Source: Clostridiales bacterium
GTDB lineage: Bacteria; Bacillota; Clostridia; Clostridiales; Clostridiaceae
DNA length: 32,000 nucleotides
Assembly (NCBI GenBank): GCA_017889345.1
Contig: JAGHEJ010000059.1
Coordinates: forward strand, 13,280 to 45,279
Direction of reading: 5' to 3'
Shown here: positions 1,539-24,633 of the stretch, in pieces
Numbering within the stretch: the first letter of the stretch is position 1
Layout: each line of letters starts with the position of its first letter
Translations under genes and position numbers: made by a program
Notes under the pieces: model-generated
The model's database searches: none
The model's input: only the letters and a program-made list of their open reading frames with translations
What the model was told of the DNA's origin: nothing

Positions 1539-4403
1539 ATGAAATCTAAAAATTTAAGAAAATTAGTTGCTAGTATTGCTATGTTAGCATTAAGTGTAAC
1601 GGTTATATCTGGTGTACAAACTAGTGCTGCACCTGCATTTAGTAATCAAATTCAAAATGGTTGGCCTTTAAATCAACCAACTAATGTAACAACTATAACA
1701 GGTAATAATGTTGCAACAATACAAGCTAATGCTACTAAAACTAGTGAGACTATATTTTCTGTAGAAAAAATAGAAACAGGAATTGCTCCAAATAAAGTTC
1801 AAGTTAATGGTCAGGACTTTAATGGTGATAGTGGAGTAGCAAGAATTGGAATAAGACTTGGTGGAAACTTAGCTTCTGCAGTAAGTGCTGAATTAAATGA
1901 TGCAATTAGAGAGTATAGAAATAATGTAAACACTGTTAACTCTAACAGACATAATAGCGGACAAGCTATAGAAATAAAATATCAACAAGCGCTTGGTAGA
2001 AAATTGTATGATTTATTTACAAATGTAAAAGAGGGAACAAGCGATAAGAACAAAGACGTAAGATTCTTGTTAACTTATGAGTTAAGCGATGGAAGATCAA
2101 GAACAACAACTGTTGCTTTAAGTGATTTAAAATTAGAAACACCTGCAACTACAGGAATAAATTCAGTTTCTGATTTACATTCTTTAGTTGATGAAAATGG
2201 ATTAGTTTACTTAACATTAAGAGGACTTCCAGCAGGAGTTACTATAACTAATATGGAGCTTGATTCAAGAAGTAATATTTTTGCTGCTACAAACACAGCA
2301 GGAACTGCTTATTCTGAGCAATCTTCTTTAAGTTATAATGCAGGAAGAGTTTCTATACCAACTTCTACTTGGATATTAACAGGTTCTTTATATCCACAGG
2401 TTACTGTAAATGGACAAGTATTTAAACAATTTGAAGAGCCTACAAATAGTAAAAATGACATAATTGAACAAGATGAACACTTATTTGTTAGAGTTGGTGG
2501 AAATACTATAACATTAGTTGACTTAATAAGAGATCCTGATAATACAATAACAGGAATAACTGTTACAGATAGAAGAGGAGATACTTTTAAAGCTGAAGTT
2601 GGAGATTTTGTTTCAACAAATTCATTCAGTGGATACAAAGATGTAAAAATATTTGGATTAACAACTAGAACAAACTATGAGTTTTCTTACATGGATATAA
2701 CTTATAAGTCTGGAGATGAAGAAAGAACTCAAAGAGTAAGTTTTAATAATAGCGCTGTAACAGATAAAGTAACAGGAGCTGATTACTTAAAAGTTACAAC
2801 TGGAAATGAAGTTGCAGCTCAACTTACTACTTTTAACTCTTTAACAAGTCAAGATCCAACAGTTTTATATCAAGTTAATGTTGGAGAAGATTCTCTTCAA
2901 TATATAGTGAAAGTTAATGAAACATCTAACCTTTCAAGAATTGAAGTTAGAGGTTTAAGAGGAAGTGAGACTTACAAAGTAGAAAATGTTAAGTCTGAAG
3001 ATGGAAAGAAAGATACATCTAACTGGTTTGTAGTTACAATAGAAAACTTAGAAAAAGGAAGAAACTATGACTTCTTATCATTAGAGACTGTTTACACTGA
3101 AAATGGAAGAGATAGATATGGAACTCCTATATCTTTAGGAAGAAGATCAACAGCTCTTGATAATGTGTTATTCCCAGGAAGCGTAAGTAATGGAGATAAT
3201 ATATTTACTACAACAAATAATAGAGGGTATAAGTCTGAGCTTTGGGTAGATGCAAATGTAAAAGCTGAGCAAGTTCCAGGTGGAGTTAAGTTTGTTGCAA
3301 GAGTAAAAGATGCTGACGATATCTTAGATAAAGTTAGGGTATATATAAATGATAATGGAAGCTACAGAGAAGTAGATTCTTCAAATGTTAAAGTTGAAAA
3401 ATCTTATAGAGTTGTTAAAGGTGTAGATGTTAATGGAAGTGGAACAATAAGTGGACAAGCTACAATTGATTATAGTTATGGACCAAGTGCTTCTACTACC
3501 CAAAAAATAACTTTCAATAACGAAGCAAATATAGAGTCAGCTTACGAAATGGTTGAGGTAACTGTTACAGGAATACCTTCAAACTCAGATAGAGAGTTCA
3601 GATTAGAGTTTGGAACTACTCAAGATGGAAATAGAGTTTCTTCATTATTGGGAACTAATGAGGGTGCATTTGGTGCAATTCCAACTAACGGAACTAAGAC
3701 TCAACAAGCTGTAACAAGATACACTAAAGGAAGAGCAGGAACTACAAAAGTAGAAGTTAGCACTTCAAATGTAAAAGTATCTAATATTACAACTACAACT
3801 GCTAACGTTGAAGTTTCAATAAAGAACCCAGATAAAGAGGGAATAGTAGTTGAAGTAGTTGGAGCTACTGGAGTTACAGGTAAGTATAATGTTGATAAAA
3901 ATGTTATAGAATTATCTGGATTAAAGCCAGGAACTGAGTACAAAGATTTAAGATTAACACTTAAATATGGAGATAAAACTACAACTGTAAATGTACCAAC
4001 ATTTAAAACAACTACAACTAGTGAAACTACAACTGGTGTTGCTGGATATGTTTCTAGAGTTTATACAACATTCTTTAACAGAGAGCCAGATCAAGGTGGA
4101 TTATTATACTGGACTGAAAGATTAGTTGGAGGACAAGAGACTTTAAGAGAATTCTTAGGACAATTAGCTTACACTCCAGAATTAATTGAAAAAGGATTAA
4201 CTAACCAACAATTTGTTGAGAGAATGTACGCAATTGTTGATAGAAAAGGTGAAGCTGAGGGAATTAATTTCTGGGTTGGTGAAATCGAGAAAGCAATAAA
4301 AGAAGGAAAAACTCAAAGCGAAGCTAGGGGTTCTGTTGTAGCAAGAATGCTTGAAACTCCAGAAGTTCAATCAATCGCAACAAAATTAGGAATCAAATAC
4401 TAA
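1539..4403 (+). CDS. Secreted large surface protein (S-layer/adhesin-like): FN3-like modules plus a C-terminal DUF4214-like module
   Basis: SD AGGAGG lies 6 nt before the ATG. Sec signal peptide: MKSKNLRKLVASIAMLALSVTVISGVQTSA/AP. FN3-like strands recur (GLTTRTNYEF, GLKPGTEYKD). A Thr-rich linker (TTTTSETTTG) is present. The C-terminus reads YVSRVYTTFFNREPDQGGLLYW...FVERMYAIVDRKGEAEGINFW. A terminator follows directly after the stop. Confidence 0.85.
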   Translation: MKSKNLRKLVASIAMLALSVTVISGVQTSAAPAFSNQIQNGWPLNQPTNVTTITGNNVATIQANATKTSETIFSVEKIETGIAPNKVQVNGQDFNGDSGVARIGIRLGGNLASAVSAELNDAIREYRNNVNTVNSNRHNSGQAIEIKYQQALGRKLYDLFTNVKEGTSDKNKDVRFLLTYELSDGRSRTTTVALSDLKLETPATTGINSVSDLHSLVDENGLVYLTLRGLPAGVTITNMELDSRSNIFAATNTAGTAYSEQSSLSYNAGRVSIPTSTWILTGSLYPQVTVNGQVFKQFEEPTNSKNDIIEQDEHLFVRVGGNTITLVDLIRDPDNTITGITVTDRRGDTFKAEVGDFVSTNSFSGYKDVKIFGLTTRTNYEFSYMDITYKSGDEERTQRVSFNNSAVTDKVTGADYLKVTTGNEVAAQLTTFNSLTSQDPTVLYQVNVGEDSLQYIVKVNETSNLSRIEVRGLRGSETYKVENVKSEDGKKDTSNWFVVTIENLEKGRNYDFLSLETVYTENGRDRYGTPISLGRRSTALDNVLFPGSVSNGDNIFTTTNNRGYKSELWVDANVKAEQVPGGVKFVARVKDADDILDKVRVYINDNGSYREVDSSNVKVEKSYRVVKGVDVNGSGTISGQATIDYSYGPSASTTQKITFNNEANIESAYEMVEVTVTGIPSNSDREFRLEFGTTQDGNRVSSLLGTNEGAFGAIPTNGTKTQQAVTRYTKGRAGTTKVEVSTSNVKVSNITTTTANVEVSIKNPDKEGIVVEVVGATGVTGKYNVDKNVIELSGLKPGTEYKDLRLTLKYGDKTTTVNVPTFKTTTTSETTTGVAGYVSRVYTTFFNREPDQGGLLYWTERLVGGQETLREFLGQLAYTPELIEKGLTNQQFVERMYAIVDRKGEAEGINFWVGEIEKAIKEGKTQSEARGSVVARMLETPEVQSIATKLGIKY

Positions 4404-4447: not shown

Positions 4448-5854
4448 TTATTTAGTTTGAAAAAATTGATCAATGTTTTCTTTAAGAGGCGTTAGAAGAT
4501 TTTTAATAACCTCTATATTTTTTGGAGATTGTATTTGATTAAAATAATAAAAGGCTCTTGTGTAATCTCTAAAGCTTAAGTATATAAGTCCTAAAGTGTG
4601 AAGAATGTGAGAGTATGTTTCGTCGATTGTGTTAACCTTATCTGTAATGTCTCCAATAGATTCTACCATTTCATTTATTTGATTAAATTTATCGCTCATA
4701 ACAGAATCATTTTCTAAGATGAGTTTAAAGTAAAATGCGTCCAATGAATTTGGAATTTCATATTCCATAAGTTCAATCACTTCTTTTAATAAATCATATT
4801 TCTTATGAGAAACTGCGATTTTTGCAAGAAGAGTTAAGATGTTGTAATAAAAGTTTTCAATTGAATTTTGAGTGTGTCTAAGTTTTAAACCAGATTTTAG
4901 AATTTTGATACAATCATCTACGTTATGACCTAAAATGTTTTTTTCACGTCCTAAAAAATAATACCATCTAATTTTGTTTGGCTCGAGTTTTATCATTTTC
5001 TCAAGAATTTCTGTGTTTCTTTCAGCTTTGTTCTTCTCTTTAAATACATCAGATTGGTATCCATCGTGAGAAAGAGTTAAATTAAGCATTATATAGTTAA
5101 TAGGTTTATCATTTTTAGAAATGATTTCTTCGTGGATTTTTCCATCAAATTTCATTTCGTGAGTTTTATTAAAAATTCTTTTTGTTGTATTTACCTTTTG
5201 TCCTAGAGAATCAATTGTAGGTGAGAATACAAGTGGATGATCTGAGTTTGCCTTGAAATTTTTAAAAAGAGATATTACATCTTTTATGAGATAAAATTCA
5301 TTTATAGGCGTTTCGTCGGCATCAATTGAAAGTATCCAATCATTTGAAGATTTGTCTATTAGAATGTTTCTTGAGTATGCGAAATCTTTTCTCCATTTGT
5401 CTTTAAATAATTTAACATTTGGAAATTTTTCTTCGATTATTTTAACTGTGTCATCAGTTGATCCAGTATCAAGTACTAGAATTTCATCGGCGAAAGTTGA
5501 GATAGAAGAAAGACATCTTTCTATACAACGTTGTTCATTATAAACAATTAAATTTACGCTTAATTTAATTGGTTCTTCATCTGAAAAAATATTTATCAAA
5601 TTAACGAGGTCTTCGTTTGTTAAGTCATCTTTATAATTTGTGTAATCATCATTTATGAAATATTTTAATATATCAGGGCATGTCCCGCTTATATAACTAA
5701 GAAGGTTTATACGTTTTAAAAGTTTATTTTTAAACTCTTTGTTCATTTCAAAATTATCATCTTTAAGTTTTGTGAAAACATATTTGTGAAAATTCAAATT
5801 GAATTTAAAATAGTCTATATCAATATTTTCAATTATTGAGTTTAGTGTTATCAT
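4448..5854 (-). CDS. Family 2 glycosyltransferase with a C-terminal helical/TPR-like region
   Basis: GT2 pattern: VNLIVYNEQRCIERCL...LVLDTGSTDDT...SIDADE (DxD). The ~200-aa C-terminal half is helical-repeat-like. SD AAAGGTGG precedes ATG 5854. Confidence 0.8.
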   Translation of the reverse strand: MITLNSIIENIDIDYFKFNLNFHKYVFTKLKDDNFEMNKEFKNKLLKRINLLSYISGTCPDILKYFINDDYTNYKDDLTNEDLVNLINIFSDEEPIKLSVNLIVYNEQRCIERCLSSISTFADEILVLDTGSTDDTVKIIEEKFPNVKLFKDKWRKDFAYSRNILIDKSSNDWILSIDADETPINEFYLIKDVISLFKNFKANSDHPLVFSPTIDSLGQKVNTTKRIFNKTHEMKFDGKIHEEIISKNDKPINYIMLNLTLSHDGYQSDVFKEKNKAERNTEILEKMIKLEPNKIRWYYFLGREKNILGHNVDDCIKILKSGLKLRHTQNSIENFYYNILTLLAKIAVSHKKYDLLKEVIELMEYEIPNSLDAFYFKLILENDSVMSDKFNQINEMVESIGDITDKVNTIDETYSHILHTLGLIYLSFRDYTRAFYYFNQIQSPKNIEVIKNLLTPLKENIDQFFQTK

Positions 5855-5961: not shown

Positions 5962-5991
5962 AAAAAAATAAGAGCTAAGATCTTAGCTCTA
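5962..5991. terminator. Palindromic bidirectional terminator at the end of codA
   Basis: Perfect 20-nt palindrome AGAGCTAAGATCTTAGCTCT (5971-5990), flanked by A7 upstream and T6 downstream. It overlaps the codA stop codon. Confidence 0.75.
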
Positions 5992-7254: not shown

Positions 7255-7266
7255 AAACTTCACCTT

Positions 7267-10739: not shown

Positions 10740-11732
10740 ATGAAAATTTGCGTAGCTGGTGGGGCTGGCTTTATAGGAAGCAATTTTATTCATTATATGA
10801 TAAACAAATATAGAGATATGCAAATTGTTTGCATAGATGCTCTTACTTATGCTGGTAATTTGGAAAATTTAGAAATCATTAGGGAAAATATTAATTTTAA
10901 ATTTTATAGAGGAAATATATTAGACGAAATATTTTTAAATAAGGTTTTTGAAAAGGAAAACTTTGATGTTGTTGTAAATTTTGCTGCAGAATCTCATGTA
11001 GATAGATCTATAAAAAATGGGAAAATATTTTTAGAGACAAATATTATTGGTACAAAAAATTTAATGGATATGTGTTTAAAGTATAATGTTAAAAAATATC
11101 ATCATGTATCAACAGATGAGGTTTATGGAGATTTATCTTTAAATGATGATAGAAAATTTTTAGAAAGTGATGTATTAAAACCATCTTCTACATATGGAGT
11201 TTCAAAGGCATCTTCTGATATGCTTGTAATGAGTTATTATAGAACGTTTAATTTACAAGTTACAATTTCAAGATGTTCAAATAATTATGGTCCTTACCAA
11301 TATCCAGAAAAATTAATTCCTGTTGCAATTATAAAAGCTATTAAAGATGAAAAAATTCCTTTGTATGGAACTGGAGAAAACATTCGTGATTGGATTCATG
11401 TTTATGATCATGTAATAGGAATTGACAAAATTATTAGAGAAGGAAAAGTTGGGGAAATTTATAATATTTCTTCAGGAGTTGAGGTTTCAAATTTAGATAT
11501 AGTTAAAACCATTTTAAAGATTTTAGGGAAGGATTACTCATTAATAAATCATGTGGAAGATAGACTTGGACATGATAAAAAATATTCTATAGATTCAAGA
11601 AAGATAAAAAATGAACTTTCTTTTGAGTGTAGTGTTAACTTTAAAGAAGGGATAGAAGAAACTGTAAATTGGTATTTAAATAATTTGACTTGGGTAGAGG
11701 AAGTTTTAAAGGATAAATATATAGAAGTGTAA
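10740..11732 (+). CDS. rfbB: dTDP-glucose 4,6-dehydratase
   Basis: Motifs seen: GGAGFIGSNF Rossmann motif, LTYAGNLENL, HVSTDEVYGD, Y-x-x-x-K (YGVSKASSDMLV), RCSNNYGPYQYPEKLIP, IRDWIHVYDH. SD AAGGAGG precedes the ATG. Confidence 0.85.
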   Translation: MKICVAGGAGFIGSNFIHYMINKYRDMQIVCIDALTYAGNLENLEIIRENINFKFYRGNILDEIFLNKVFEKENFDVVVNFAAESHVDRSIKNGKIFLETNIIGTKNLMDMCLKYNVKKYHHVSTDEVYGDLSLNDDRKFLESDVLKPSSTYGVSKASSDMLVMSYYRTFNLQVTISRCSNNYGPYQYPEKLIPVAIIKAIKDEKIPLYGTGENIRDWIHVYDHVIGIDKIIREGKVGEIYNISSGVEVSNLDIVKTILKILGKDYSLINHVEDRLGHDKKYSIDSRKIKNELSFECSVNFKEGIEETVNWYLNNLTWVEEVLKDKYIEV

Positions 11733-11768: not shown

Positions 11769-12905
11769 GTGAATTATAAGAGGAGAAATTTCATTGGTAT
11801 ATTTTCTTTTGTTATTATAATTTTAGTTATGATAAATTTTAATTTCATACTTGAGGTTATTAATTATAAAATTTTAGGAATAGATTACATTGGATTTAAA
11901 GGGGAAGAACTATTTTTATCAGAGCTTAATGAAACGGATCTAACAAAAACAGAGCTTATAAATTACATAGATGAAAACTTTAATAAAATTGGAATGAAGA
12001 AGCTTAAGAATAAAGATTTTGGATTATATTTAAGAAATATTGAAGAAGAGGATAAATTTTTAGAGAAGTTTAGGCTTCCTATAGATGAAAAATTTCAAGA
12101 GGAGTTTTATAAAAGTCTTGATTTAGTTCCTGAAAACGAAAAATTTCTTGTTAAGTTTGTGATATATGATAAGGATAAAACTTATACAAGTAAACCATTT
12201 TCTATAAGGTTAGTGGACGAGCTTTATAAAAATGAAGGAAAAATGGTAATAGATGTAGATGAATTTTCAAGAGAAGGAATGGTTAGTTATATAGAACTTC
12301 CGAAATATTTAAATCTTTCTAAAAATTCAAAAATTAGTGTAAATGCAAAACATGAAGATTTACAAGTATCAGGGCTAAAAGGTGAGTATGATGAGGAAAG
12401 TGGAAAGATAAAAATTTCAAATTTAGTTCCTATAAAGCCATATTCAAATATAGAAATTGTAACTAAAAACTTAGAAGGTGTAGATGTTTTAATTAATATA
12501 AGAAGTATTTTAATGAATCCAGAATCAAAGCTTCAAGAATATTTAACTAAAATCTATTTAACCTCTTTAAATAGATATCCTTATGAAGAAGAATACTTAG
12601 AAAATTTAAATAATTTATCAAGTCACAAAGTATCTATAAGAGAATTTTTAACAAAAATAATTTTAAGTGAGGAGTTTGATAAGATAAATACTTCTCCAAA
12701 ACAAATAGTAGATAGCATTTATTATATGGTAAATAAACAAAGTATAACTGGAAGATTATCAACATTGATAGTGGATGAATTTAATAATGAACTTTTAGAT
12801 GAAAATTTAAAAAACGATGGTAAAATTAAAATTTTAGATAAATTACTTCAGGATGATAATTCTAAAAATTATATGGAATCAATATTAGAAATAAAAATTA
12901 ATTAA
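11769..12905 (+). CDS. Membrane-anchored mini-paralog: N-terminal signal-anchor TM, one FN3-like module, degenerate DUF4214-like tail
   Basis: - N-terminus: KRR followed by the hydrophobic stretch FIGIFSFVIIILVMINFNFIL.
- The segment KISNLVPIKPYSNIEIV...LQEYLTKIYLTSLNRYPYEEEYLENLNNLSSHKVSIREFL aligns to the C-terminus of 18737-21886.
- The start is uncertain: GTG 11769 has no SD. Confidence 0.65.
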   Translation: MNYKRRNFIGIFSFVIIILVMINFNFILEVINYKILGIDYIGFKGEELFLSELNETDLTKTELINYIDENFNKIGMKKLKNKDFGLYLRNIEEEDKFLEKFRLPIDEKFQEEFYKSLDLVPENEKFLVKFVIYDKDKTYTSKPFSIRLVDELYKNEGKMVIDVDEFSREGMVSYIELPKYLNLSKNSKISVNAKHEDLQVSGLKGEYDEESGKIKISNLVPIKPYSNIEIVTKNLEGVDVLINIRSILMNPESKLQEYLTKIYLTSLNRYPYEEEYLENLNNLSSHKVSIREFLTKIILSEEFDKINTSPKQIVDSIYYMVNKQSITGRLSTLIVDEFNNELLDENLKNDGKIKILDKLLQDDNSKNYMESILEIKIN

Positions 12906-15334: not shown

Positions 15335-17119
15335 GTGGGAGAATATTTAGACACTTATTCCAAATACTTAATAGCCAACAAAGAATTTTTTGAGGATATG
15401 GTTCAAAGGCTTTTGGCTATGCAGAAGATAAATAAAGAATTAATTTTAAAAGCTCAAAGAAGATTAAGGACACTTAAACTTATAGAGGAGGTTTCTCCAT
15501 CTCTTCATAAATATTTTTATGGAAAAGATTATGAAGATATATTAGATCAAAATATTTTTATGGATTTAGAGAAGTATGTGGATTATCTTCTTCGTTATTC
15601 TCAATCACAAATAGATATAAAAGTTTCAGGAGAAAGAGATGAAAATTTATGCAAAATTTGTTCTAAATCCTATGAATCTATTCATAATTATAACTGTTCT
15701 AACAAAGTGCAGATAAATTTAAATTCCAATGAGATATTTCTTGAAGATTATGAGGAAATAAATGAACTATGTTTTTTAATAAATGAAGTAGCTTGCTCGA
15801 ATATAAATTTTAAAGTAATAGATGTAGTTAATAATACTGAATACTTTGAAGATAGGATTAACGAAAAGAGATATAGAAACTATGTAAACACAAAAATAAC
15901 TCTTATAAAAATAAGTGATTATAGGGATTTTATTAAAGCCCCCCATACAAATGAATTTCTATTAAATAGAATGAGCTTTTTAGATCCTAATCCTATATGG
16001 AACTACTATCTTTTAGAGAAAAAGGTAAATAGTAGAGAGCTTCCATCAAACATTATAAAATATGCCTCTTATGTTAAAGAAAATTTTGAAAGCTATGCTT
16101 ATTTAGATGAGGAGTTATACAAATCAATTGGTATAAATGCTTTAACTATTTTATGTGATAATTATATCGAAATAGATGATTATGATAAGTTTGAAGAATG
16201 TTTTGAAGAATTGAGAAGTATAGAATGTAACTTGTTAGAACTTATATATTTAAGAGCGAAAAGTATAATTAAGAGTAACAATTTTAAGATAAATACGTTT
16301 TTAGAGGAACTTAGAGAAGATCTTCTTAAAAATCCAAATAAATGCTCTAATATGAATTTAGATTCAAAAAGTTTATACAGATTAATTGGAGAAATGCTTG
16401 AAACACAGGGGAATTATATTGGGGCTGGTGAAAATTATTTTAAAAGCGGAGAACTTTTAGCATATATAAATAAACTAGGAAGTATAGTAAGTTATTTAAA
16501 CAAAACCCTTTACAAAGAGAATGAATATTTTGAAGGTATAATTTTAACTCCAAAAATTAATACGAACTATAAATTTATAAGTGATCGAATAAACATTGAA
16601 GATATAAATGAGGTTATAGGTAAAGATCATACACGTTTATTTTCCTTTGAACTTTGTGCAAAAGAGATTAAAGAGTATAAAATTAGTGGAGAGATTGTAG
16701 AGCTAAGTAGCAATAGATCGGATTTTTCGCTCCTTTTAAATGAAGCATTTTATGAGAGAAAACATTATTTATTTGATATTAATGAGAAGGAAAATATAGA
16801 AGGAAGTATAGATGATATAATAAGTACTCGAGAGAATGTTATTTTTAAGAAATGGACATTTTTAAAAGAAGCAGAAGAGCTTACAGAGAAATTTTGTTTT
16901 GTGAGCATAGATGTTAATGAATATAAATTAATTCTTGAAAGTTTATTATATTTTTATGAGAGATTATCGCCAGGCGGATATATATTTATTAATTATTACA
17001 ATTACAAATTATATGAGGAAGTATCAAGAGCTGTAAAAGATTTTGAGAGAATGATTTCTCATAGAGTTTGTAAATTTCCACTTAGTGATTTTGGTGGAAC
17101 CCTTGTTATAACGAAGTGA
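15335..17119 (+). CDS. Large cytoplasmic protein with a C-terminal TylF/MycF-like methyltransferase fold whose SAM- and metal-binding motifs look degenerate
   Basis: SD AAGGAGG lies 5 nt before GTG 15335. The C-terminal ~160 aa align by eye to the macrocin-O-methyltransferase family: GEIVELSSNRSDFS vs GDxxExGVWRGGSS, and FVSIDVNEYKLILESLLYFYERLSPGGYIFINYY vs LRLDGDxYESTxxALxxLYxKLSPGGYxIxDDY. The N-terminal ~430 aa are unassigned. Confidence 0.6.
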   Translation: MGEYLDTYSKYLIANKEFFEDMVQRLLAMQKINKELILKAQRRLRTLKLIEEVSPSLHKYFYGKDYEDILDQNIFMDLEKYVDYLLRYSQSQIDIKVSGERDENLCKICSKSYESIHNYNCSNKVQINLNSNEIFLEDYEEINELCFLINEVACSNINFKVIDVVNNTEYFEDRINEKRYRNYVNTKITLIKISDYRDFIKAPHTNEFLLNRMSFLDPNPIWNYYLLEKKVNSRELPSNIIKYASYVKENFESYAYLDEELYKSIGINALTILCDNYIEIDDYDKFEECFEELRSIECNLLELIYLRAKSIIKSNNFKINTFLEELREDLLKNPNKCSNMNLDSKSLYRLIGEMLETQGNYIGAGENYFKSGELLAYINKLGSIVSYLNKTLYKENEYFEGIILTPKINTNYKFISDRINIEDINEVIGKDHTRLFSFELCAKEIKEYKISGEIVELSSNRSDFSLLLNEAFYERKHYLFDINEKENIEGSIDDIISTRENVIFKKWTFLKEAEELTEKFCFVSIDVNEYKLILESLLYFYERLSPGGYIFINYYNYKLYEEVSRAVKDFERMISHRVCKFPLSDFGGTLVITK

Positions 17120-17190
17120 TATAAATAGAAAGATTTACGGTAAATTTTAATATCAATGATTTAAATTATTTGGTTTGTTATAGATTTTTT

Positions 17191-17224
17191 AGCTAGGATT
17201 TTATTTTATCCTAGCTATTTTTTT
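17191..17224 (+). terminator. Rho-independent terminator
   Basis: Perfect 9-bp stem AGCTAGGAT (17191-17199) / ATCCTAGCT (17208-17216), followed by ATTTTTTT. Confidence 0.8.
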
Positions 17225-17238
17225 AGGAGGGAAAAGTT

Positions 17239-18222
17239 TTGGAAGATTTAATAAGTGTTATTATACCTGTTTATAACCTTGAAAAATATTTAAGAGAGAG
17301 TCTTGATAGTGTTATAAATCAAACTTATGAAAATCTTGAAATAATTTTAGTTGATGATGGATCTACTGATAATTCTCTTAGGATTTTAAGAGAGTATGAG
17401 AAAAAAGATAAGAGGATTTCTGTTCTTACTCAAAAAAATGGTGGAATATGTATGGCTATGAAAAATGGAGTTGCATTTTCTTCTGGGAAATATATTGCTC
17501 GTTGCGATGGAGATGATATAAATGAGCTTAATCGTTATGAACGTCAACTTAAATATTTAAAAGAGAATGATTGTGATTTAGTTGGTTGTTATTTAAAAGC
17601 CTTTGGAGATGGAGATGAAAATTATCAGAGAATTATAGATGGAACTAGATCTCCTATTAGAAATTTTAATGAGGCGTTTTCAAGAGCTTATTTTGGAGGA
17701 GTTATAACCGGTGGGAGTATTTTTGGAAGAAGTGATGTGTTTAAAAAACTTTCTCCTTTTCATAAGGATTTTGGGGTTATAGAAGATAGGCTTATATATT
17801 TGAGTTTTTTTAGAAATGGATATAAGATTGGAATGGTTGAGGAAATTTTATATAATTATAGGGTTCATCATACGAATACTTCATTAAATCCAAAGAATCG
17901 TTTAACTATGATGATGAGGCATTTTGAATTATTGTTTTTGTATTTGTTTGATGAAGCACTTAGTAATTATAGAAACATAATTGTAGTTCAGAGAAGAGAT
18001 GTACTTAGTGTGATTTCCAAAATATTTAAGGAGAGATATGGGGATTTAAATTTAATAGTTGTAGATGAGAATGAGAGTTTAAGATTTTTTGAAAGAGGGA
18101 TTTTAAATTACAAGGTGAGTGATACATGTGTGTTTCTTTCTCCACAAATTTTTAATGAGGGGAAAGTTATATTAGAATCACTCCAGTATGAGCATTTGAA
18201 AAATTTATTTTATTTAATATAA
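17239..18222 (+). CDS. Family 2 glycosyltransferase
   Basis: SD AGGAGG lies 8 nt before TTG 17239. Motifs seen: VIIPVYNLEKYLRESLDSVINQTYENLEIILVDDGSTDNS and CDGDD (DxD). Confidence 0.85.
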   Translation: MEDLISVIIPVYNLEKYLRESLDSVINQTYENLEIILVDDGSTDNSLRILREYEKKDKRISVLTQKNGGICMAMKNGVAFSSGKYIARCDGDDINELNRYERQLKYLKENDCDLVGCYLKAFGDGDENYQRIIDGTRSPIRNFNEAFSRAYFGGVITGGSIFGRSDVFKKLSPFHKDFGVIEDRLIYLSFFRNGYKIGMVEEILYNYRVHHTNTSLNPKNRLTMMMRHFELLFLYLFDEALSNYRNIIVVQRRDVLSVISKIFKERYGDLNLIVVDENESLRFFERGILNYKVSDTCVFLSPQIFNEGKVILESLQYEHLKNLFYLI

Positions 18223-18736: not shown

Positions 18737-21700
18737 ATGAACAAAAAAAGAATAGCTTTAGCTTTAGCAGCTGGACTCTCACTTAATACTCTAGCAGTAA
18801 CTGTAGCGCCAATTGGTAGACAAGCTGAAATAGCTCATGCAGTTCAATCTTCAGGAAGACTTACAACTCAAGAAGATGAAGCAAGACGTAAGGCGATAAA
18901 TATAAAACAGTTAGACACAATAGCTACAAATTTAGCAAATGGTGATGTTGAGGTAACTTTTAAAAATATTAAAACAGAAGATATTAAGACAGTTACAGCT
19001 ACAGAATTTAAGCAAGATAAATTTACAGAAAGAAAAGATATTGATGGAAATAACTTACCAGTAACTCCAACATGGACAAATGGAAAGTTAATATTTAAAG
19101 GAATTAAAGAGGCTGGTATATACACAGGAACTGTTACTATAGAGTATAAAACTGGAGATAAAGAAACATATACATTATCTTTGACAAAGAAAGTTTCTGA
19201 TACATTTGAAATAGAAAAAATAGATGTTACAGCAGGAGCAATAAAAGTTAGTGACGTTAAATTTAATGGACAAGCATTAAAAGATAATGAAACTTTATAC
19301 TTGGTAGAAAAAGGTGGAAGTGTAACATCAACTACACCAAAAGCTACGTATACATCAGCAAGTGGGGCGGTATTTAATAGTGGAATTAAGTTTGAAGAAG
19401 GAAAAGTTTATGAAGTAGTTTATCAATATGCAGGTGGATTACATGAAGTAGCTGCACAAGTTATGCTGGTTAAAGAAGCTCCTAAATTTTCTGCTTATGC
19501 TTCAAATAGCACAAGTTTTGAAGCAGATTTAAAATCACAAGTTGAGAGTGATTTTATGGCAAGTGCTACTATATCAGGTACTAAACCGTCGGCTTTAGGA
19601 GTAGGTGATTTTACAGTTGATGTAACAGGTGTTGGAACTGTAACTAAGTATAGTCAAACTTATAGTGGTTCTTACTTAGGAGGTGTTGCTATAACTCCAT
19701 CATTTGATTCAACTGGAGGATTAACAGTTACTCTTGGTACGGCAAGGACTACAGGAGCTAATTTTGTACCAGCTATAAATCTTGGTTATGGGGAAAATAC
19801 AACTAATAGCACTGGATTAGTTGGTAATTATATAGTAAATGTTGGAAATGGAAATGATGTAAGTTATTTTGATGCTTCATCACATGTTATTGATGTTAAA
19901 GCTATGGTTACTGGTACGAAAGCTATACTTAATGTAAATAGTATTAGTACAGATTTTACTAAATTAGATTTAACAGATATTAAGTTATCAGGTTCGGATA
20001 CTGATAAAATATTAAATTTAAATCATGGATACTCTTCAGTTGGTGTCGAGTTTAAAGTTAAAGATAGTAATTTTGGAGGTAAGAGTTTTGCGGATTGGGA
20101 AACTGAAGTTGTGAATTTAGTAACTAGTGCTGTAACTACTAGTGTTAAACCAACTCTTTCAACGATAAATAATACTGCTTCAAATATTGTTTCAATAGTA
20201 GTATCAAAGGATGCTTTAGAAGATGTTGTAATAAGTGCGGATTTTGTTAGAACTAGTGAGTCAACAGGAGAGTTAGTGGTAAAGAATGGACAAAAATTAT
20301 TCCCTGCAAACTTTAATCCGAATGATGTTGTTTCTAAGTTAAATATACCAGGAGCAAAAATCAGTCTAATAGCCGATGGAAGTACGACTGATTTTAGATT
20401 CTCAGTTGAGTATAATGGAAATCTTCCTTCAACTATAGATTGGACATTTACAGTTGATAATAAAGATTTAGTAAGTACTGTATCTACTTTTGGTGGAAAG
20501 TTAGAAACAGATAAAGGAATGGTTGAGGTTGTTAACTTCGATAAAGCAGTTACGACATCAAATACAAATACAAACACCATTCAAAATCAATTTGAGATTG
20601 TAGCAGGTTTTGGAAATGCAGTTCCAAGTGGTGCTACTTTAGGATTTGAAAATCAAAATAATTTAAGAGTTACTTTTAAAGATTTAGGAACTCAAAATAA
20701 AACTATAAAAGCTACAGTTGGAAGCGGAAGTAAGTATCAGGGAGTTTATTCAGCTGGTATTTGGGTTACTCAACAGCCAATGGGACTTCAAGTAACTAAA
20801 GCAGAATCTACTGAATCAGGAAGAGTAAATCTTACAATTGATGCTTCGTTCTTCAATGTAGATGATTATAAAAATGTAAGTGGAGCAAAAATTGAATATA
20901 GAGAAAAAGTTGGTGCGAATGAAACACCAAAAGCTTGGGTAGATTCAAAAGTAGCATTTACAATAACTGGGAATAATAGTGACATAAAAGAAGATGCAAT
21001 TACTAAGAGTGTTACTGGCCTTACAGCAAACAAAGAGTATGAGTTCAGAGTAATTTATGATTATAAAGATGGCAATGATACAGTTCCTGTAACTTCCAAT
21101 GTGGTTACAGTAAAAGTTTCTAATAATACAAGTGGTAGCAGTGGAATAGTTTCAGGAGGAAGCGGTTCAACTACGATAGGAACATCAGTTGGATCAACTA
21201 CAATTACTTCAACTTCAAGCAACACGACTTCTGATTCTGATACAGTTAATATAACTTTACCTTCAGGAGTAAATTATGATTCAACTAAAACTCCAGTTGC
21301 TGTTAAGTTTACTTACAAAGGACTTGATGGAAAAACTGTAACTGAAAATAAAGAGCAATATTCAAATGTTGTTGCAAAATTTGAAAATGGAAAAATAGTT
21401 GTTGATGGATTAGTTCCAGGAAAAGATTATCCAGAAATTTCTGTTGACTACACAGACAATAATGGAAGAACAAGAACATTAATTCTTAAAGATGTTAAAA
21501 CCACAACTACAACTGAACTTGAAAAATATTTAGCTGATGTTTATACAACAGTGTTTAAGAGACCAGCTGATGAAGCAGGATACCACTTCCACTTAAATAA
21601 CTTAAAAGATAAGAAAGTATCTTTAAGAGAATTCTTGAAAAATATGTTAAATGAGAAAGAGTTTAATGAAAATTACAAAACTCCAGAAACTAAAGTTGAA

Positions 21701-21886
21701 GCTTTATATGCAGCAATCGTAGCTCGTACACCAGACCAAGCTGGAAAAGATTTCTGGGTAAATGAATACAAGAAAGCTGTTACAACTTATGGATCTGAAG
21801 CTTTAGCATTACAAGCTATAGTTGATAGAATGGTAAATGAAGCAGAATTAAAAACCCTTGCTGAAAAAATGAACGTTCAATGGTAA
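18737..21886 (+). CDS. Secreted large surface protein, second subfamily (Ig/FN3-like modules, Ser/Thr/Gly linker, DUF4214-like C-terminus)
   Basis: I reassigned the start from TTG 18722 to ATG 18737 (GGAGG at 18724-18728, 8-nt spacer). Signal peptide: MNKKRIALALAAGLSLNTLAVTVAPIGRQAEIAHA/V. GLTANKEYEFRV and GLVPGKDYPEI are present. Linker: SNNTSGSSGIVSGGSGSTTIGTSVGSTTITSTSSNTTSDSD. C-terminus: YLADVYTTVFKRPADEAGYHFH...VEALYAAIVARTPDQAGKDFW. Confidence 0.85.
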   Translation: MNKKRIALALAAGLSLNTLAVTVAPIGRQAEIAHAVQSSGRLTTQEDEARRKAINIKQLDTIATNLANGDVEVTFKNIKTEDIKTVTATEFKQDKFTERKDIDGNNLPVTPTWTNGKLIFKGIKEAGIYTGTVTIEYKTGDKETYTLSLTKKVSDTFEIEKIDVTAGAIKVSDVKFNGQALKDNETLYLVEKGGSVTSTTPKATYTSASGAVFNSGIKFEEGKVYEVVYQYAGGLHEVAAQVMLVKEAPKFSAYASNSTSFEADLKSQVESDFMASATISGTKPSALGVGDFTVDVTGVGTVTKYSQTYSGSYLGGVAITPSFDSTGGLTVTLGTARTTGANFVPAINLGYGENTTNSTGLVGNYIVNVGNGNDVSYFDASSHVIDVKAMVTGTKAILNVNSISTDFTKLDLTDIKLSGSDTDKILNLNHGYSSVGVEFKVKDSNFGGKSFADWETEVVNLVTSAVTTSVKPTLSTINNTASNIVSIVVSKDALEDVVISADFVRTSESTGELVVKNGQKLFPANFNPNDVVSKLNIPGAKISLIADGSTTDFRFSVEYNGNLPSTIDWTFTVDNKDLVSTVSTFGGKLETDKGMVEVVNFDKAVTTSNTNTNTIQNQFEIVAGFGNAVPSGATLGFENQNNLRVTFKDLGTQNKTIKATVGSGSKYQGVYSAGIWVTQQPMGLQVTKAESTESGRVNLTIDASFFNVDDYKNVSGAKIEYREKVGANETPKAWVDSKVAFTITGNNSDIKEDAITKSVTGLTANKEYEFRVIYDYKDGNDTVPVTSNVVTVKVSNNTSGSSGIVSGGSGSTTIGTSVGSTTITSTSSNTTSDSDTVNITLPSGVNYDSTKTPVAVKFTYKGLDGKTVTENKEQYSNVVAKFENGKIVVDGLVPGKDYPEISVDYTDNNGRTRTLILKDVKTTTTTELEKYLADVYTTVFKRPADEAGYHFHLNNLKDKKVSLREFLKNMLNEKEFNENYKTPETKVEALYAAIVARTPDQAGKDFWVNEYKKAVTTYGSEALALQAIVDRMVNEAELKTLAEKMNVQW

Positions 21887-22098: not shown

Positions 22099-22173
22099 AT
22101 AAACGCTGTCTTAAGGAAGAAATATCGTAATATATTTTTTAAAGTAATGTATTTAAAATACGAGGCAGAAAAT

Positions 22174-24633
22174 ATGAAAAATAAAGAGAAGGTTTTGGAA
22201 AAATCTTTAGAAGAAATTACGGCGGTGGAAATTAAAAATCTAAAAACAGAAATTAAATCCGTTAATGAAAATCATATAGTTTTGGGATTTACTATTGAAG
22301 ATAAAATTGTGGAAACAGTTGAGGGAACATTCAGTTATAAAGAATTTGGAGAAGAGAAGGATTCAGAAAGTTTGCCTGAAAAAGAAGAGTCTAGTGAAGA
22401 GGAAATGGGTGGACAAGCACAAGTAGGAGAGGGAGTTACTACATTTACACAAAGTGTTACAGAAACTGTGGATAAATTAAAATTAACTGAAGGAAATAAG
22501 AGTAAAAATGAATGGAACTTAAAGGGATTAGATAAGGTTGGATTATATAAAGGAGATGTTAAAGTTTCTATTTATGGAAAAGAGGAAACTTATAAGATAA
22601 CTTTAAGAAAGATTAATGAAGAGAAAAAGGTAAGTATAGAAGAAATTAAAATAGACAGCAGTGTTTCAAGCGATGTAGAAGTTCAAGAGTCCGTTCAGGT
22701 TGATGGTGGTGTAGAGAATAGTGGACAAGAGGCATCACCAGAATCTAAAATTCACACACTAACTCTTTCAAACATTAAAGTTAATAATAAAACATTATTA
22801 AATAATGAAATAGTTGAATTAAAATCGGAAAAATATGGAATAATTAAAAAACAAGAGAAGGTGAAAAACTCTAATACTTATGAGTTTGCTATAACTGGAG
22901 AACTTGTAGATAAAGAAATTTTTGATGTAATTATAAAGAATAAATCAGAGAAAAAAGAGAAAAGTGAAGATATTCTAGCTACCACTCAAATTATTTTAAT
23001 AAAGAATGAAATTAAACTTGAAGAGAGTGAAGAAAATCCTAATAAAATAGAAGGAAAACAGGTTTTTAGCTCTTTTAAATCTACAGGGGCAAATACAGGG
23101 GAGCTTTCTATTAATGATAAAAGCATACTAACAAAACTTGAACCAAATAGTCAAAAATGGTCAACAATTCTTAAATTAAATTCAGGAAGCGTTCAAAATA
23201 TAACTTTAAAAAATGAAGATTCTCCTAAGGAAGGCAAAAATGAAGCCCTATTTATTATAATTTTTAATGGAAAAACTCCTATGGGGAAAATAAGTTGGAG
23301 TTTTGGAAAATTAAAAGGGGAAACTTATAACCCAATAATTGAAGCTTTAAATTTTGTGAATAATCCTAAGATAGTTAGAAATGGTTCTTCTTTTAGACTT
23401 GAAGTTAAGTTTAATGATTTAATTCCAGCTGGTGAAAAAATTGAACTAATTAATGATGGTAAAATAATTGATTCAGAAAAAATTACAATAGATAACTTTA
23501 AAACAGGAAATTATATTTTAAAAAGTAATGTTAAAACAGGCAATTATAGGGGAGCTTATGAAGCAGGTATTAATGTAAATATAAATCCTATTGGAATTAC
23601 TATAAGGGATAATAAACTTAATATTGTAGGAAGTGCAGAGGTTTTAATAGAAACAAGTTTCTTTGATGAGAAAGATAAACAAAATGTTAAAGGAGGATCT
23701 CTTAAATATAAGGAAAAGGGTTCTTCAGGAGATTTTATAGAAATTAATCTTTCAAGCGAGGAAGTTAAACAAAAATATTTAGTTAAAAGAGTTGAAGGTT
23801 TAAGGGAAGGAATTTATTATTAATTTTTAGCTCAATATTTATGTGTAAATAAAGAAAAGCAGGAAGCAGAGAGCTTAGTTAGAATTTTTTCAAATACAAT
23901 TGAGATATTAATCCCTAAAAAACAAGATGAAAATAAAAAAGATGAGATTAAAATAGAAGTTGATAAAGAAAATTCAGAACAAATTGAAGATGGAATATCG
24001 ATAAAAATCCCATCTAATATTTTAATTGATAAGGAAAAAAATATAGAAGCAGGGGTTTTTAAATATAAAGATAAAAATGGAAATATTGTAACTCAATCTA
24101 AAGAAGAGTTTTCAAATGTAACTGTAAAATTTGAAGGGGAAAAAATGATAATAGATGGACTTGTTCCAGGAAAAAGATATGAAGAGATAACTGTTGATTA
24201 CGTTGATAAAGATGGAAAAATCAAATCATTAACTTTAAAAGATATAGTAGTAGAGCCTCAATCTAAATTAGATGAATATCTTCCTAATGTTTATGATTCT
24301 GTGTTTTCAAGAGAGGCAGATGAAGCAGGATATCATTATCATTTAGATAGGTTAGAAAGTGGAGAAACTTCTATAAGAGATTTTTTAAGAAGTATAATAG
24401 ATGGAGAAGAATTTGGTCAAAACAAAGATCTTGGAGAAAAAGTTGATGATTTATATAGTGCTATAGTTGGAAGGGATTCTGATGAAGAAGGAAAAAAGTT
24501 CTGGATGGAAGAGTATAACAAAACTTTAAATGAATGCGGTTCAGATAAAGAAGCTTTAAAAATTATTGTAGATAGAATGGTAAATGAAAATGAATTAAAA
24601 GAGATTGCAGAAAAACTTGATGTTAAATGGTAA
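22174..24633 (+). pseudogene. Tandem paralog of 18737-21886 lacking a signal peptide and interrupted by one in-frame TAA (23821-23823)
   Basis: ORFs 22147-23823 and 24145-24633 are in the same frame. The stretch 23824-24144 between them is also open in that frame and stays homologous to the upstream paralog, e.g. ISIKIPSNILIDKEKNIEAGVFKYKDKNGNIV vs VNITLPSGVNYDSTKTPVAVKFTYKGLDGKTV. The likely start is ATG 22174 (GAGG 8 nt upstream). Confidence 0.65.

What the first reader, a model, noticed from the sequence alone, without database searches (positions are those of the whole stretch)
1539..24633. Five genes share one bipartite DUF4214-like C-terminal module: candidate undescribed wall-anchoring or assembly domain of a surface-protein family
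**What the sequence shows.** The last ~115-125 aa of five ORFs are the same module, at these positions:
- 4036-4400
- 12529-12800 (degenerate)
- 14851-15217
- 21514-21883
- 24268-24630

Each module holds two half-repeats of the form [YW]-[VLI]-x-x-[VFI]-Y-x-x-[VF]-[FL]-x-R-x-x-D-x-x-G-x-x-[YF]-[WH], joined by a 'S/T-[LIV]-R-[ED]-F-L' helix. Examples:
- YVSRVYTTFFNREPDQGGLLYW / FVERMYAIVDRKGEAEGINFW
- WIEGFYNIFFLRDGDPSGMEYW / YVERMYRSVTGRTSDAEGLAWW
- YLADVYTTVFKRPADEAGYHFH / VEALYAAIVARTPDQAGKDFW

**Context.** From memory this is the DUF4214 (PF13946) pattern, which has no assigned function. Three carriers are 720-1050 aa proteins with clear Sec signal peptides. The module is always terminal and always follows an FN3-like 'GL-PGTEY' module and a Thr/Ser-rich linker. 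The N-terminal parts fall into two divergent subfamilies: 1539 with 13049, and 18737 with 22174. I see no SLH, CWB2, LPXTG, LysM, SH3b or choline-binding repeats in any of them.

**Inference.** A conserved tail on variable heads is what an anchoring or lattice-assembly domain looks like. The anchoring role is inference, not shown by the sequence.
Basis: partly seen in the sequence, partly recalled or inferred. Interest (0 to 1): 0.75.

Follow-up and report, generated by a model that had tools for sequence, protein, structure and literature searches.

The report
Known SFB surface-protein tail domain (DUF4214)
Five neighbouring genes of a segmented filamentous bacterium (a gut commensal that trains the host immune system) end in the same ~120-residue helical domain, already described in this group and already proposed, but never proven, to hold their surface proteins on the cell wall.

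Summary
Exactly five ORFs in the window end in one homologous module. Four pass Pfam DUF4214 (43-52 bits against a cut-off of 23.2). The fifth (B) fails Pfam but matches a profile built without it at E 3e-15.

The module is an internally duplicated, all-helical domain. Its AlphaFold2 model (pLDDT 93) matches only phycobilisome-linker (PF00427) domains in the PDB.

The window comes from a segmented filamentous bacterium (SFB, Candidatus Arthromitus). It is syntenic with mouse SFB.
- Gene A is the ortholog of SFBM_1251/SFBNYU_003240, a CD8 T-cell antigen.
- Gene D is very probably the ortholog of SFBNYU_003340, the major Th17 antigen.

The finding is not undescribed.
- Pamp 2012 reported this C-terminal DUF4214/phycobilisome-linker-like motif on about 19 secreted SFB proteins.
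- Jonsson 2020 and a 2025 cryo-ET paper postulated that it anchors surface proteins in these sortase-less bacteria.

New indirect support found here:
- Tails are more conserved than heads.
- Relatives of the module are fused to peptidoglycan enzymes and adhesin repeats.
- No other anchor is present.

Binding has never been shown, and the ligand is unknown.

Verdict: a correct rediscovery of a known family and a known hypothesis.

The parts
1539..4403 (+). Gene A, 954 aa. It has a Sec signal peptide, about 7 beta-sandwich domains and a C-terminal helical tail. It is the ortholog of SFBM_1251 / SFBNYU_003240.
   Evidence: ORF list. DUF4214 at 50.2 bits. It is 52% identical over 100% of its length to P0075, named 'SFBM_1251 [Candidatus Arthromitus sp. 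SFB-mouse-Japan]'. P0075 contains SGLIYVTL, the CD8 epitope of SFBNYU_003240. AlphaFold2 model pLDDT 80. Best PDB matches are FN3/Ig strings.
4036..4400 (+). A tail: the phycobilisome-linker-like (DUF4214) module.
   Evidence: helices at residues 834-950.
11769..12905 (+). Gene B, 378 aa. It has an N-terminal signal-anchor/TM segment, a beta-rich middle and a degenerate tail.
   Evidence: Sequence. Conserved in mouse SFB (41% identity) and in a related SFB assembly (61%) at the same position.
12492..12881 (+). B tail: a degenerate member of the module. The R..D..G..[YF]W signature is largely lost.
   Evidence: Pfam gives only 13.3 bits. A profile built without B gives E 3.2e-15. Alignment.
13049..15220 (+). 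Gene C, 723 aa. It is a secreted paralog of A.
   Evidence: DUF4214 at 51.5 bits. The N-terminal similarity to A has E 9e-13. Ortholog in mouse SFB at 64% identity over the part held.
14851..15217 (+). C tail module.
18737..21886 (+). Gene D, 1049 aa from the ATG at 18737 (a TTG at 18722 is also open). It is secreted and is the probable ortholog of the SFB Th17 antigen SFBNYU_003340.
   Evidence: DUF4214 at 43.5 bits. It is 58% identical to a 'DUF4214 domain-containing protein [Candidatus Arthromitus sp. SFB-turkey]'. The epitope LVFDVQFSGAVPNKT lines up with 'LVFRVQFNGQVPSTI' in orthologs P0040 and P0044, and with 'FRFSVEYNGNLPSTI' in D. D lies 10 genes after A, which fits the locus tags 3240 and 3340.
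21514..21883 (+). D tail module. This is the tail that was modelled.
   Evidence: AlphaFold2 pLDDT 93.1, eight helices. All top-50 Foldseek PDB matches are phycobilisome linker domains, TM 0.42-0.57.
22174..24633 (+). Gene E, a decaying paralog of D. It has no signal peptide and an in-frame TAA at 23821-23823. Its tail is intact.
   Evidence: (codon). The 162-aa downstream ORF is on record from 7 contigs, and an uninterrupted 922-aa version (P0026) exists. In a related SFB assembly this slot holds an intact secreted 1093-aa paralog.
24268..24630 (+). E tail module.
   Evidence: DUF4214 at 45.9 bits. It is 51% identical to the D tail.
4448..5854 (-). GT2 glycosyltransferase with a long C-terminal extension. 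It is a conserved neighbour of A.
   Evidence: PF00535, E 1.3e-16. It is 83% identical to mouse SFB and holds the same position.
10740..11732 (+). NDP-sugar 4,6-dehydratase (RmlB-like), immediately upstream of B.
   Evidence: PF16363, E 4.8e-73. Syntenic.
15335..18222 (+). A TylF-like methyltransferase (15335-17119) and a GT2 glycosyltransferase (17239-18222), lying between C and D.
   Evidence: The same block, with three GT2 genes, lies between C and D in a related SFB assembly.

Best explanation
**What it is**
- The window is the conserved '3240-3340' surface-antigen locus of a segmented filamentous bacterium.
- It is a species-level relative of mouse, rat and turkey SFB.
- Five paralogous genes end in one copy of an all-helical domain of about 120 residues.
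- The domain is internally duplicated: helix, R-x-x-D-x-x-G loop, [YF]W helix, twice.
- It belongs to the DUF4214 / phycobilisome-linker superfamily.

**How it most likely works**
- The domain is a non-covalent cell-envelope retention module for Sec-exported proteins in an organism that has no sortase, SLH or CWB2 system.
- The protein is exported through its N-terminal signal peptide.
- The C-terminal domain binds a conserved bacterial wall component, either peptidoglycan or a wall-linked glycopolymer.
- A Thr/Ser-rich linker and a string of FN3/Ig-like beta-sandwich domains project the fast-evolving, immunogenic head away from the wall.

**Shown**
- The homology, the fold, the architecture, the orthology and synteny, and the head-versus-tail conservation.

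**Shown by others**
- The mouse ortholog of D sits in the cell wall beneath the outer layer.

**Inferred**
- That the tail is what holds the protein there.
- That the ligand is a wall polymer.
- That the interleaved GT2, RmlB-like and methyltransferase genes make either that ligand or the glycans on the linkers.
For: **1. One family**
- Pfam DUF4214 in four of the five tails.
- Family profile hits B at E 3e-15 and nothing else in the window.
- The internal repeat is significant.

**2. Fold**
- AlphaFold2 pLDDT 93.1.
- The top 50 PDB matches are all phycobilisome linker domains.
- The tail profile hits ApcE at E 1e-16.

**3. SFB origin and orthology**
- Named homologs come from SFB-turkey and SFB-mouse-Japan.
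- Gene order is identical in mouse SFB and in a related assembly.
- Housekeeping neighbours are 71-85% identical. A, B and C are 41-64% identical.

**4. A conserved tail on variable heads**
- D orthologs: tail 68-84% against head 40-60%.
- A orthologs: tail 59-77% against head 44-61%.

**5. No alternative anchor**
- No wall-binding or sortase-type family appears at E <= 0.1.
- The proteins end in ...NVQW...GIKY and ...LRVE, with no hydrophobic C-terminus.
- SFB lack sortase (PMC7474095).

**6. Company the module keeps**
- The family profile finds 20,732 cluster representatives.
- In a random 59 of the best 145, it is fused to:
  - peptidoglycan enzymes: YkuD 4, VgrG3-like C 2, CHAP 2, and VanY, M23, SpoIID, GH25 and NlpC/P60 one each;
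  - surface repeats: Big_2 6, LRR_4 6 and LRR_5 4;
  - choline-binding repeats: 5.
- This is the distribution typical of wall-targeting modules.

**7. Literature**
- p3340 / Th17Ag is an abundant cell-wall-associated protein by immuno-EM.
Against: - No binding experiment exists for any DUF4214 domain.
- The one functional paper is on the P. putida RTX-DUF4214 protein Psh. It infers O-antigen binding from gene context and Boltz-2 modelling only.
- The only biochemically understood relatives, the phycobilisome linker domains, mediate protein-protein contacts, not glycan binding.
- The tails are acidic to neutral (pI 4.5-6.2). This does not suggest electrostatic binding to anionic wall polymers.
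- Some relatives also carry choline-binding or SH3 domains. In those proteins DUF4214 may not be the wall-binding part.
- The conserved R/D/G/aromatic positions are shared with phycobilisome linkers. They may be structural rather than a ligand site.
- The per-family counts are not per-protein counts, and the organisms are unknown.
Confidence: 0.55

Rival explanations
1. The tail is a protein-protein assembly module. Like the phycobilisome linker domain, which plugs into the central cavity of phycobiliprotein rings, it would dock the carriers onto each other or onto an oligomeric base. This would build the SFB S-layer or the hair-like layer as a lattice, rather than binding the wall itself.
For: - The only solved relatives are phycobilisome linker domains, which act through protein-protein contacts.
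- Many relatives carry 3-13 tandem copies, as scaffolds do.
- SFB do have a regular S-layer and a regular hair-like layer of unknown composition (PMC12780176).
Against: - Fusion to many different peptidoglycan-acting enzymes is hard to explain by lattice building.
- The Th17Ag ortholog lies beneath the outer layers and is not a visible lattice component.
- The five tails are only 19-51% identical to each other. That is a poor fit for a common protein partner unless it is very tolerant.
Confidence: 0.2
2. The tail is a lectin for the organism's own surface glycans. These would be the O-glycans on the Thr/Ser-rich linkers, made by the interleaved GT2, RmlB-like and methyltransferase genes. The carriers would then cross-link each other through glycan-domain contacts. 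This is a hybrid of anchoring and assembly.
For: - Glycan genes are interleaved with the carriers, and the arrangement is kept across SFB lineages.
- The GT2 next to A is 83% identical to mouse SFB, as conserved as the best housekeeping neighbours.
- Thr/Ser-rich stretches are conserved. 'GTS[TV]GSTTI[TN]' was among the most conserved stretches of the D orthologs.
- The Psh gene lies by O-antigen genes.
Against: - No evidence that these proteins are glycosylated.
- Only one enzyme of a deoxy-sugar pathway is in the window.
- Gene proximity in a small 1.6-Mb-class genome is weak evidence.
Confidence: 0.12
3. The tail has no retention role. It would be a folding or stability cap, or a host-directed ligand-binding domain, and the proteins would be released or held by something else.
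For: - p3340 is transferred into host enterocytes in vesicles (cited).
- Many predicted extracellular SFB proteins appear anchorless.
Against: - The tail is the most conserved part across SFB from different hosts, while the heads diverge. This argues for a bacterial, not a host-specific, partner.
- Immuno-EM places the mouse ortholog in the wall.
Confidence: 0.08

Closest known systems
SFB 'Cluster.1 / Cluster.3' secreted proteins with a C-terminal DUF4214 motif (Pamp et al. 2012, PMC3371716). Postulated as an anchoring motif by Jonsson et al. 2020 (PMC7474095) and Nat Commun 2025 (PMC12780176).
   Same: - Same organism group and same C-terminal module.
- Same DUF4214 and phycobilisome-linker similarity, and the same FN3 neighbour.
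- Same predicted secretion.
- A and D are orthologs of named members (SFBM_1251/SFBNYU_003240 and p3340).
- The locus is syntenic.
   Different: - This is a different SFB lineage: 41-64% identity for the carriers and 71-85% for housekeeping genes.
- One paralog (E) is decaying here.
Pfam PF13946 (DUF4214), a very large bacterial family. The family profile built here finds 20,732 cluster representatives.
   Same: - Four tails pass the gathering score.
- The two-hit (bipartite) pattern per ~120-aa unit is also the rule in multi-copy relatives.
   Different: - In SFB the module is single and strictly C-terminal. Many relatives carry 3-13 internal tandem copies.
- The function of the family is unassigned.
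Phycobilisome linker domain (PF00427; for example PDB 3OSJ, 2KY4, and the ApcE REP domains).
   Same: - Same fold over about 120 residues (TM 0.52-0.57).
- Detectable profile similarity (ApcE E 1e-16) and the same R-D / aromatic helix motif.
   Different: - The tails do not reach the PF00427 gathering score (14-17 bits against 28.7).
- The organism is not photosynthetic and has no phycobiliprotein partner.
- The domain is extracellular.
Non-covalent wall-binding modules of Gram-positive surface proteins: SLH (PF00395), CWB2 (PF04122), choline-binding repeats, SH3b and LysM.
   Same: - Works like them, by inference: a conserved terminal module on many different heads, including peptidoglycan hydrolases and S-layer or adhesin-type proteins, in place of sortase anchoring.
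   Different: - No sequence or fold relationship. None of these families is detected.
- The ligand is unknown and binding is unproven.
Psh, an RTX-DUF4214 protein of Pseudomonas putida (bioRxiv 10.64898/2026.09.02.748959).
   Same: - It carries a DUF4214 domain, is exported to the cell surface, and its gene lies beside surface-glycan genes.
   Different: - It is Gram-negative, uses T1SS/RTX export, and has a phage-masking role.
- O-antigen binding is modelled, not measured.

Membership tests
Pfam DUF4214 (PF13946) | Whole-protein score at or above the gathering score of 23.2 bits. | tested here: met
   A 50.2, C 51.5, D 43.5 and E 45.9 bits. B fails at 13.3 bits. B is nevertheless a diverged member by a family profile built without it (E 3.2e-15).
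SFB C-terminal-motif surface proteins (Pamp 2012 Cluster.1/3) | Encoded by an SFB genome. | tested here: met
   Best named homologs are from Candidatus Arthromitus SFB-turkey (58%) and SFB-mouse-Japan (52%). Gene-for-gene synteny with a contig that encodes the exact SFBM_1251 sequence. Housekeeping neighbours are 71-85% identical.
SFB C-terminal-motif surface proteins (Pamp 2012 Cluster.1/3) | Predicted secreted protein with the conserved regions at the extreme C-terminus. | tested here: met
   A, C and D have n-region / hydrophobic / A-x-A-type N-termini (read from the sequence; no signal-peptide predictor was available). All five modules end within 2-8 residues of the stop codon. B has a signal-anchor and E has no signal.
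Ortholog of SFBNYU_003240 (CD8 antigen), for gene A | Full-length similarity to the mouse-SFB protein that carries SGLIYVTL, at the same locus. | tested here: met
   P0075 (SFBM_1251) aligns at 52% identity over 100% of A and contains SGLIYVTL. A has NGLVYLTL at the same place. The flanking genes are identical.
Ortholog of SFBNYU_003340 (Th17 antigen p3340), for gene D | Full-length similarity to p3340 itself. | tested here: inconclusive
   The p3340 sequence was not in hand. Indirect support:
- The epitope LVFDVQFSGAVPNKT matches 'LVFRVQFNGQVPSTI' in D orthologs P0040 and P0044, and 'FRFSVEYNGNLPSTI' in D.
- The size fits: 1049 aa against a tagged mature Th17Ag of 113.8 kDa.
- D is 10 genes after A, matching the locus tags 3240 and 3340.
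- p3340 is reported to carry this C-terminal motif.
Phycobilisome linker domain (PF00427) | Pfam gathering score of 28.7 bits. | tested here: not met
   14.2-17.3 bits. So it is not a member by sequence threshold.
Phycobilisome linker domain (PF00427) | Same fold. | tested here: met
   Foldseek top-50 PDB hits are all linker domains. For 3osj_A: E 6e-4, TM 0.52/0.57, 120 columns. The profile hits ApcE at E 1e-16.
Classical Gram-positive anchors (SLH, CWB2, LysM, SH3b, choline-binding repeats, LPXTG sorting signal) | A domain or motif detectable in the carriers. | tested here: not met
   No such Pfam family at E <= 0.1 in any of the six ORFs. No NCBIfam hit of relevance. The C-termini lack LPXTG plus a hydrophobic tail.
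Fibronectin type III (PF00041), the module preceding the tail | Pfam gathering score of 25 bits, or an FN3-like beta-sandwich fold. | tested here: inconclusive
   A scores 24.1 bits (E 4e-5) and C 16.9 bits, both below the cut-off. Two A orthologs have PF00041 on record. The AlphaFold2 model shows beta-sandwiches, and the best PDB matches are FN3/Ig strings.
Wall-binding function (works like SLH/CWB2) | Direct binding of the isolated domain to wall material. | not testable with these tools
   Only indirect evidence: architecture, conservation, and published localisation.

The most novel reading that the evidence does not exclude
**Claim 1.** The DUF4214 / phycobilisome-linker-like domain is a genuine new class of non-covalent wall-polymer-binding module. 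It would be the functional replacement for SLH, CWB2 and sortase in SFB and other Firmicutes. Its ligand would be made by the GT2, RmlB-like and methyltransferase genes interleaved with the carriers.

**Claim 2.** The A/C-type carriers would be the 34 +/- 6 nm hair-like structures, or the hair-like layer, of SFB. The composition of these structures is unknown.
- The A/C carriers have about 7 beta-sandwich domains plus the tail.
- They would span roughly 25-35 nm if extended. This is my estimate from typical domain size.
Probability: 0.2. Interest if true: 0.65.

Novelty: already known. Interest (0 to 1): 0.3.

Why it matters
- SFB are the textbook Th17-inducing commensals. The proteins in this window include the orthologs of their dominant CD4 (p3340) and CD8 (3240) T-cell antigens.
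- How these antigens are held on a sortase-less, SLH-less cell is still unproven. So is what the S-layer and the hair-like layer are made of.
- DUF4214 is one of the larger domains of unknown function. The family profile built here finds more than 20,000 cluster representatives, often on peptidoglycan enzymes and adhesin-like proteins.
- Proving a wall-binding role would therefore annotate a very large family.
- None of this is new as a hypothesis. The value of this window is a further, diverged SFB lineage, which shows which parts are conserved (tail, glycan genes) and which vary (heads, the decaying E copy).

Tried and rejected
- **Reference-genome scans.** Two scans for relatives found nothing: full-length A and a 10-sequence D alignment. 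The short exact peptide patterns did not match. The species could not be named from a genome title.
- **Word-indexed protein search with the five tails.** It gave only 3 hits. The exhaustive profile search was needed.
- **NCBIfam.** No relevant family.
- **Rejected: chance or low-complexity similarity.** E-values run from 1e-50 to 1e-67 for four tails and 3e-15 for B, and no other ORF hits.
- **Rejected: two independent DUF4214 domains per tail.** The model is one compact 8-helix domain matching a single phycobilisome linker domain over about 120 columns.
- **Rejected: E as two genes.** It is one reading frame with a single TAA.
- **Considered: Psh as proof of glycan binding.** Rejected as proof, because the binding is only modelled.
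- **Considered: B's decayed signature as a natural control.** B has its own membrane anchor. This was not relied on, because the same residues are conserved in phycobilisome linkers and may be structural.


Full report
**1. What is in the sequence**

The window has about 27% G+C. It carries 24 ORFs of at least 100 aa.

Pfam places DUF4214 (PF13946, cut-off 23.2 bits) at the C-terminus of four of them, each as two stretches:
- A (1539-4403): 50.2 bits
- C (13049-15220): 51.5 bits
- D (18722/18737-21886): 43.5 bits
- the 162-aa ORF 24145-24633: 45.9 bits

B (11769-12905) scores only 13.3 bits (E 0.09).

To test B without circularity I built a profile from 23 tails, leaving B out. I searched it against every stop-to-stop ORF of 50 aa or more in all six frames.
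- B scores E 3.2e-15 across profile positions 13-145.
- The other four score between 1e-50 and 1e-67.
- Nothing else in the window matches.

There are therefore exactly five modules, far beyond chance.

The two halves of the module are related to each other: hhalign probability 94.7%, E 5.8e-8. 'Bipartite' is correct.

The head subfamilies are also correct.
- A and C share their first ~400 residues (E 9e-13).
- D and E share everything from about residue 496 (32% identity, E 2e-76).
- A and D share only the last ~170 residues (E 6e-18).

No SLH, CWB2, LysM, SH3, choline-binding or sortase-signal family appears at E <= 0.1.

**2. Corrections to the description**

- ORFs 22147-23823 and 24145-24633 are one gene (E), in one frame. 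It is interrupted by a single TAA at 23821-23823.
- A related strain has GAA (Glu) at that position and an uninterrupted 922-aa protein (P0026).
- The truncated form is on record from 7 contigs, so it is not a read error.
- Neither version of E has a signal peptide.
- In a related SFB assembly the same slot holds an intact, secreted 1093-aa paralog of D. E is therefore a decaying copy in this lineage.
- B begins with a long hydrophobic signal-anchor rather than a cleavable signal. Its tail has lost most of the R..D..G..[YF]W signature.
- B is nevertheless conserved at the same position in mouse SFB (41% identity) and in the related assembly (61%).

**3. What the module is**

An AlphaFold2 model of the last 150 residues of D, built with a 24-sequence alignment, is confident: mean pLDDT 93.1. 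It shows two beta-strands of the preceding sandwich, a short linker, and eight helices.

- All top-50 Foldseek matches in the PDB are phycobilisome linker (PF00427) domains. Examples are 3OSJ and 2KY4, with about 120 aligned columns and TM 0.52-0.57.
- A profile of the tails finds ApcE linker repeats at E 1e-16 by sequence.
- The tail is therefore a single globular phycobilisome-linker-like domain. The 72-position Pfam DUF4214 model hits it twice.
- The tails do not reach the PF00427 cut-off (14-17 bits against 28.7).

The full-length model of A has pLDDT 80. It shows about seven beta-sandwich domains ahead of the tail. Its best PDB matches are strings of FN3/Ig domains. By sequence the FN3 call is borderline, at 24.1 bits against a cut-off of 25.

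**4. Where it comes from**

- The closest named homolog of D is a 'DUF4214 domain-containing protein [Candidatus Arthromitus sp. SFB-turkey]', at 58% identity.
- The closest named homolog of A is 'hypothetical protein SFBM_1251 [Candidatus Arthromitus sp. SFB-mouse-Japan]', at 52% identity over the full length.
- A contig that encodes the exact SFBM_1251 sequence has the same gene order as the window: LspA, A, GT2, amidohydrolase, permease, adenine deaminase, RmlB-like, B, C.
- A related SFB assembly continues the same order: TylF-like methyltransferase, GT2 genes, D, a D paralog, NAGPA, GatD, MurT.
- Housekeeping neighbours are 71-85% identical. A, B and C are 41-64% identical.

The window is thus a distinct SFB lineage. 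The exact proteins occur in metagenome assemblies ERR4647693 and ERZ15803738. Two reference-genome scans failed to name the species.

**5. Which proteins these are**

- SFBM_1251 contains SGLIYVTL. [quoted passage not shown] A is its ortholog and has NGLVYLTL at that site.
- D lies ten genes downstream of A, as the locus tags 3240 and 3340 would predict. This step is an inference.
- D has the right size.
- The p3340 epitope LVFDVQFSGAVPNKT aligns with 'LVFRVQFNGQVPSTI' in D orthologs and with 'FRFSVEYNGNLPSTI' in D.
- D is therefore very probably the ortholog of the major Th17 antigen. The p3340 sequence itself was not available, so this is not fully closed.

**6. What was already known**

- Pamp et al. 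2012 described 19 secreted SFB proteins, plus a second cluster, united by conserved C-terminal regions. These match PF13946, have a structure like phycobilisome linker 2KY4, and include an FN3-containing member. The authors suggested they are surface-structure components.
- Jonsson et al. 2020 noted that SFB lack sortase. They found the motif in p3340 and its human-SFB ortholog, and cited immuno-EM placing p3340 in the cell wall. They postulated at least 14 proteins anchored through this motif.
- The 2025 cryo-ET study calls DUF4214 a likely surface-anchoring domain. [quoted passage not shown] It shows the Th17 antigen is an abundant wall-associated protein masked by the hair-like layer.

**7. 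Evidence added here on mechanism**

(a) Among orthologs the tail is consistently more conserved than the head.

| Orthologs of | Tail identity | Head identity |
|---|---|---|
| D | 68-84% | 40-60% |
| A | 59-77% | 44-61% |

This pattern is expected if the tail meets a conserved bacterial partner while the heads face host immunity.

(b) The family is huge. The profile finds 20,732 cluster representatives at E <= 1e-3. Many have several tandem internal copies. All single-copy, full-length matches in the listed set sit at the extreme C-terminus, as in SFB.

(c) I scanned a random 59 of the best 145 hits against Pfam (examples). The module co-occurs with:
- peptidoglycan-acting enzymes: YkuD 4, VgrG3-like C 2, CHAP 2, and VanY, M23, SpoIID, GH25 and NlpC/P60 one each;
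- adhesin-type repeats: Big_2 6, LRR_4 6 and LRR_5 4, Invasin D4 2;
- choline-binding repeats: 5.

These are per-family counts, not per-protein counts. This is the company that wall-targeting modules keep.

(d) The glycan genes interleaved with the carriers are syntenic across SFB. The GT2 next to A is 83% identical to mouse SFB.

Points against the anchoring reading:
- The tails are acidic to neutral (pI 4.5-6.2).
- The only biochemically understood relatives act through protein-protein contacts.
- The conserved motif residues are shared with phycobilisome linkers, so they may be structural.
- The Psh preprint's O-antigen binding is modelled, not measured.

**8. Conclusion**

- The best-supported reading is a non-covalent cell-envelope retention domain for Sec-exported, beta-sandwich-stalk surface proteins of SFB (confidence about 0.55).
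- Lattice or protein-assembly roles and self-glycan lectin roles are live rivals.
- The thing itself is a known family carrying a known, unproven hypothesis.
- The most novel reading still open has two parts: that the domain is a true new class of wall-polymer-binding module, and that the A/C carriers form the 34-nm hair-like structures whose composition is unknown. I put this at about 0.2.

Noticed in passing
window 10484-10586 (-): A purine riboswitch (Rfam RF00167, 76.5 bits against a gathering score of 37). It lies just upstream of the minus-strand adenine deaminase (8718-10451), cytosine/purine permease (7267-8499) and amidohydrolase (5989-7263) genes. It sits in the middle of the surface-protein locus.
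   Followed up: partly
window 22174-24633 (+), stop at 23821-23823: Gene E is a signal-less paralog of D with a single TAA where a related strain has GAA. The truncated form is on record from 7 contigs. In a related SFB assembly (L005 13542-16823) the same slot holds an intact secreted 1093-aa paralog. This looks like ongoing decay of a duplicated Th17-antigen-type gene.
   Followed up: yes
window 11769-12905 (+); L003 20355-21479; L005 220-1356: B is a conserved membrane-tethered protein. Its phycobilisome-linker-like tail has lost the family signature, and there is no Pfam hit on record for the orthologs. It is the only carrier with its own membrane anchor, and its role is unknown.
   Followed up: partly
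window 4448-5854 (-), 10740-11732 (+), 15335-18222 (+): A GT2 with a long C-terminal extension, an RmlB-like dehydratase, a TylF-like methyltransferase and a second GT2 are interleaved with the carriers, and this is kept across SFB lineages. The related assembly L005 has three GT2 genes there. The arrangement resembles an S-layer or surface-protein glycosylation cluster. It could equally be a wall-polymer cluster.
   Followed up: partly
window 1539-4403 (model mcf8230496dc7): A is predicted to be a string of about seven beta-sandwich domains on the helical tail. If extended it would be of the same order of length as the 34 +/- 6 nm hair-like structures seen on SFB tips, whose composition is unknown (PMC12780176). 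The length is my own estimate and was not measured on the model.
   Followed up: no
window 24664-25908 (-): A protein with a signal-peptide-like N-terminus and a NAGPA phosphodiester-glycosidase domain (E 2e-28) lies directly after the carrier genes. It is conserved there in L005. It may be a wall-polymer remodelling enzyme.
   Followed up: no
window 25972-28050 (-): A GatD/MurT pair (lipid II isoglutamine amidation), 83-85% identical to a related SFB assembly. An ordinary cell-wall housekeeping operon.
   Followed up: no
D orthologs, around window 21130-21250: A Ser/Thr/Gly-rich stretch ('GTS[TV]GSTTI[TN]') is among the most conserved segments of the otherwise fast-evolving D family. The locus search picked it as a search pattern. 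It may be an O-glycosylation or processing site.
   Followed up: no
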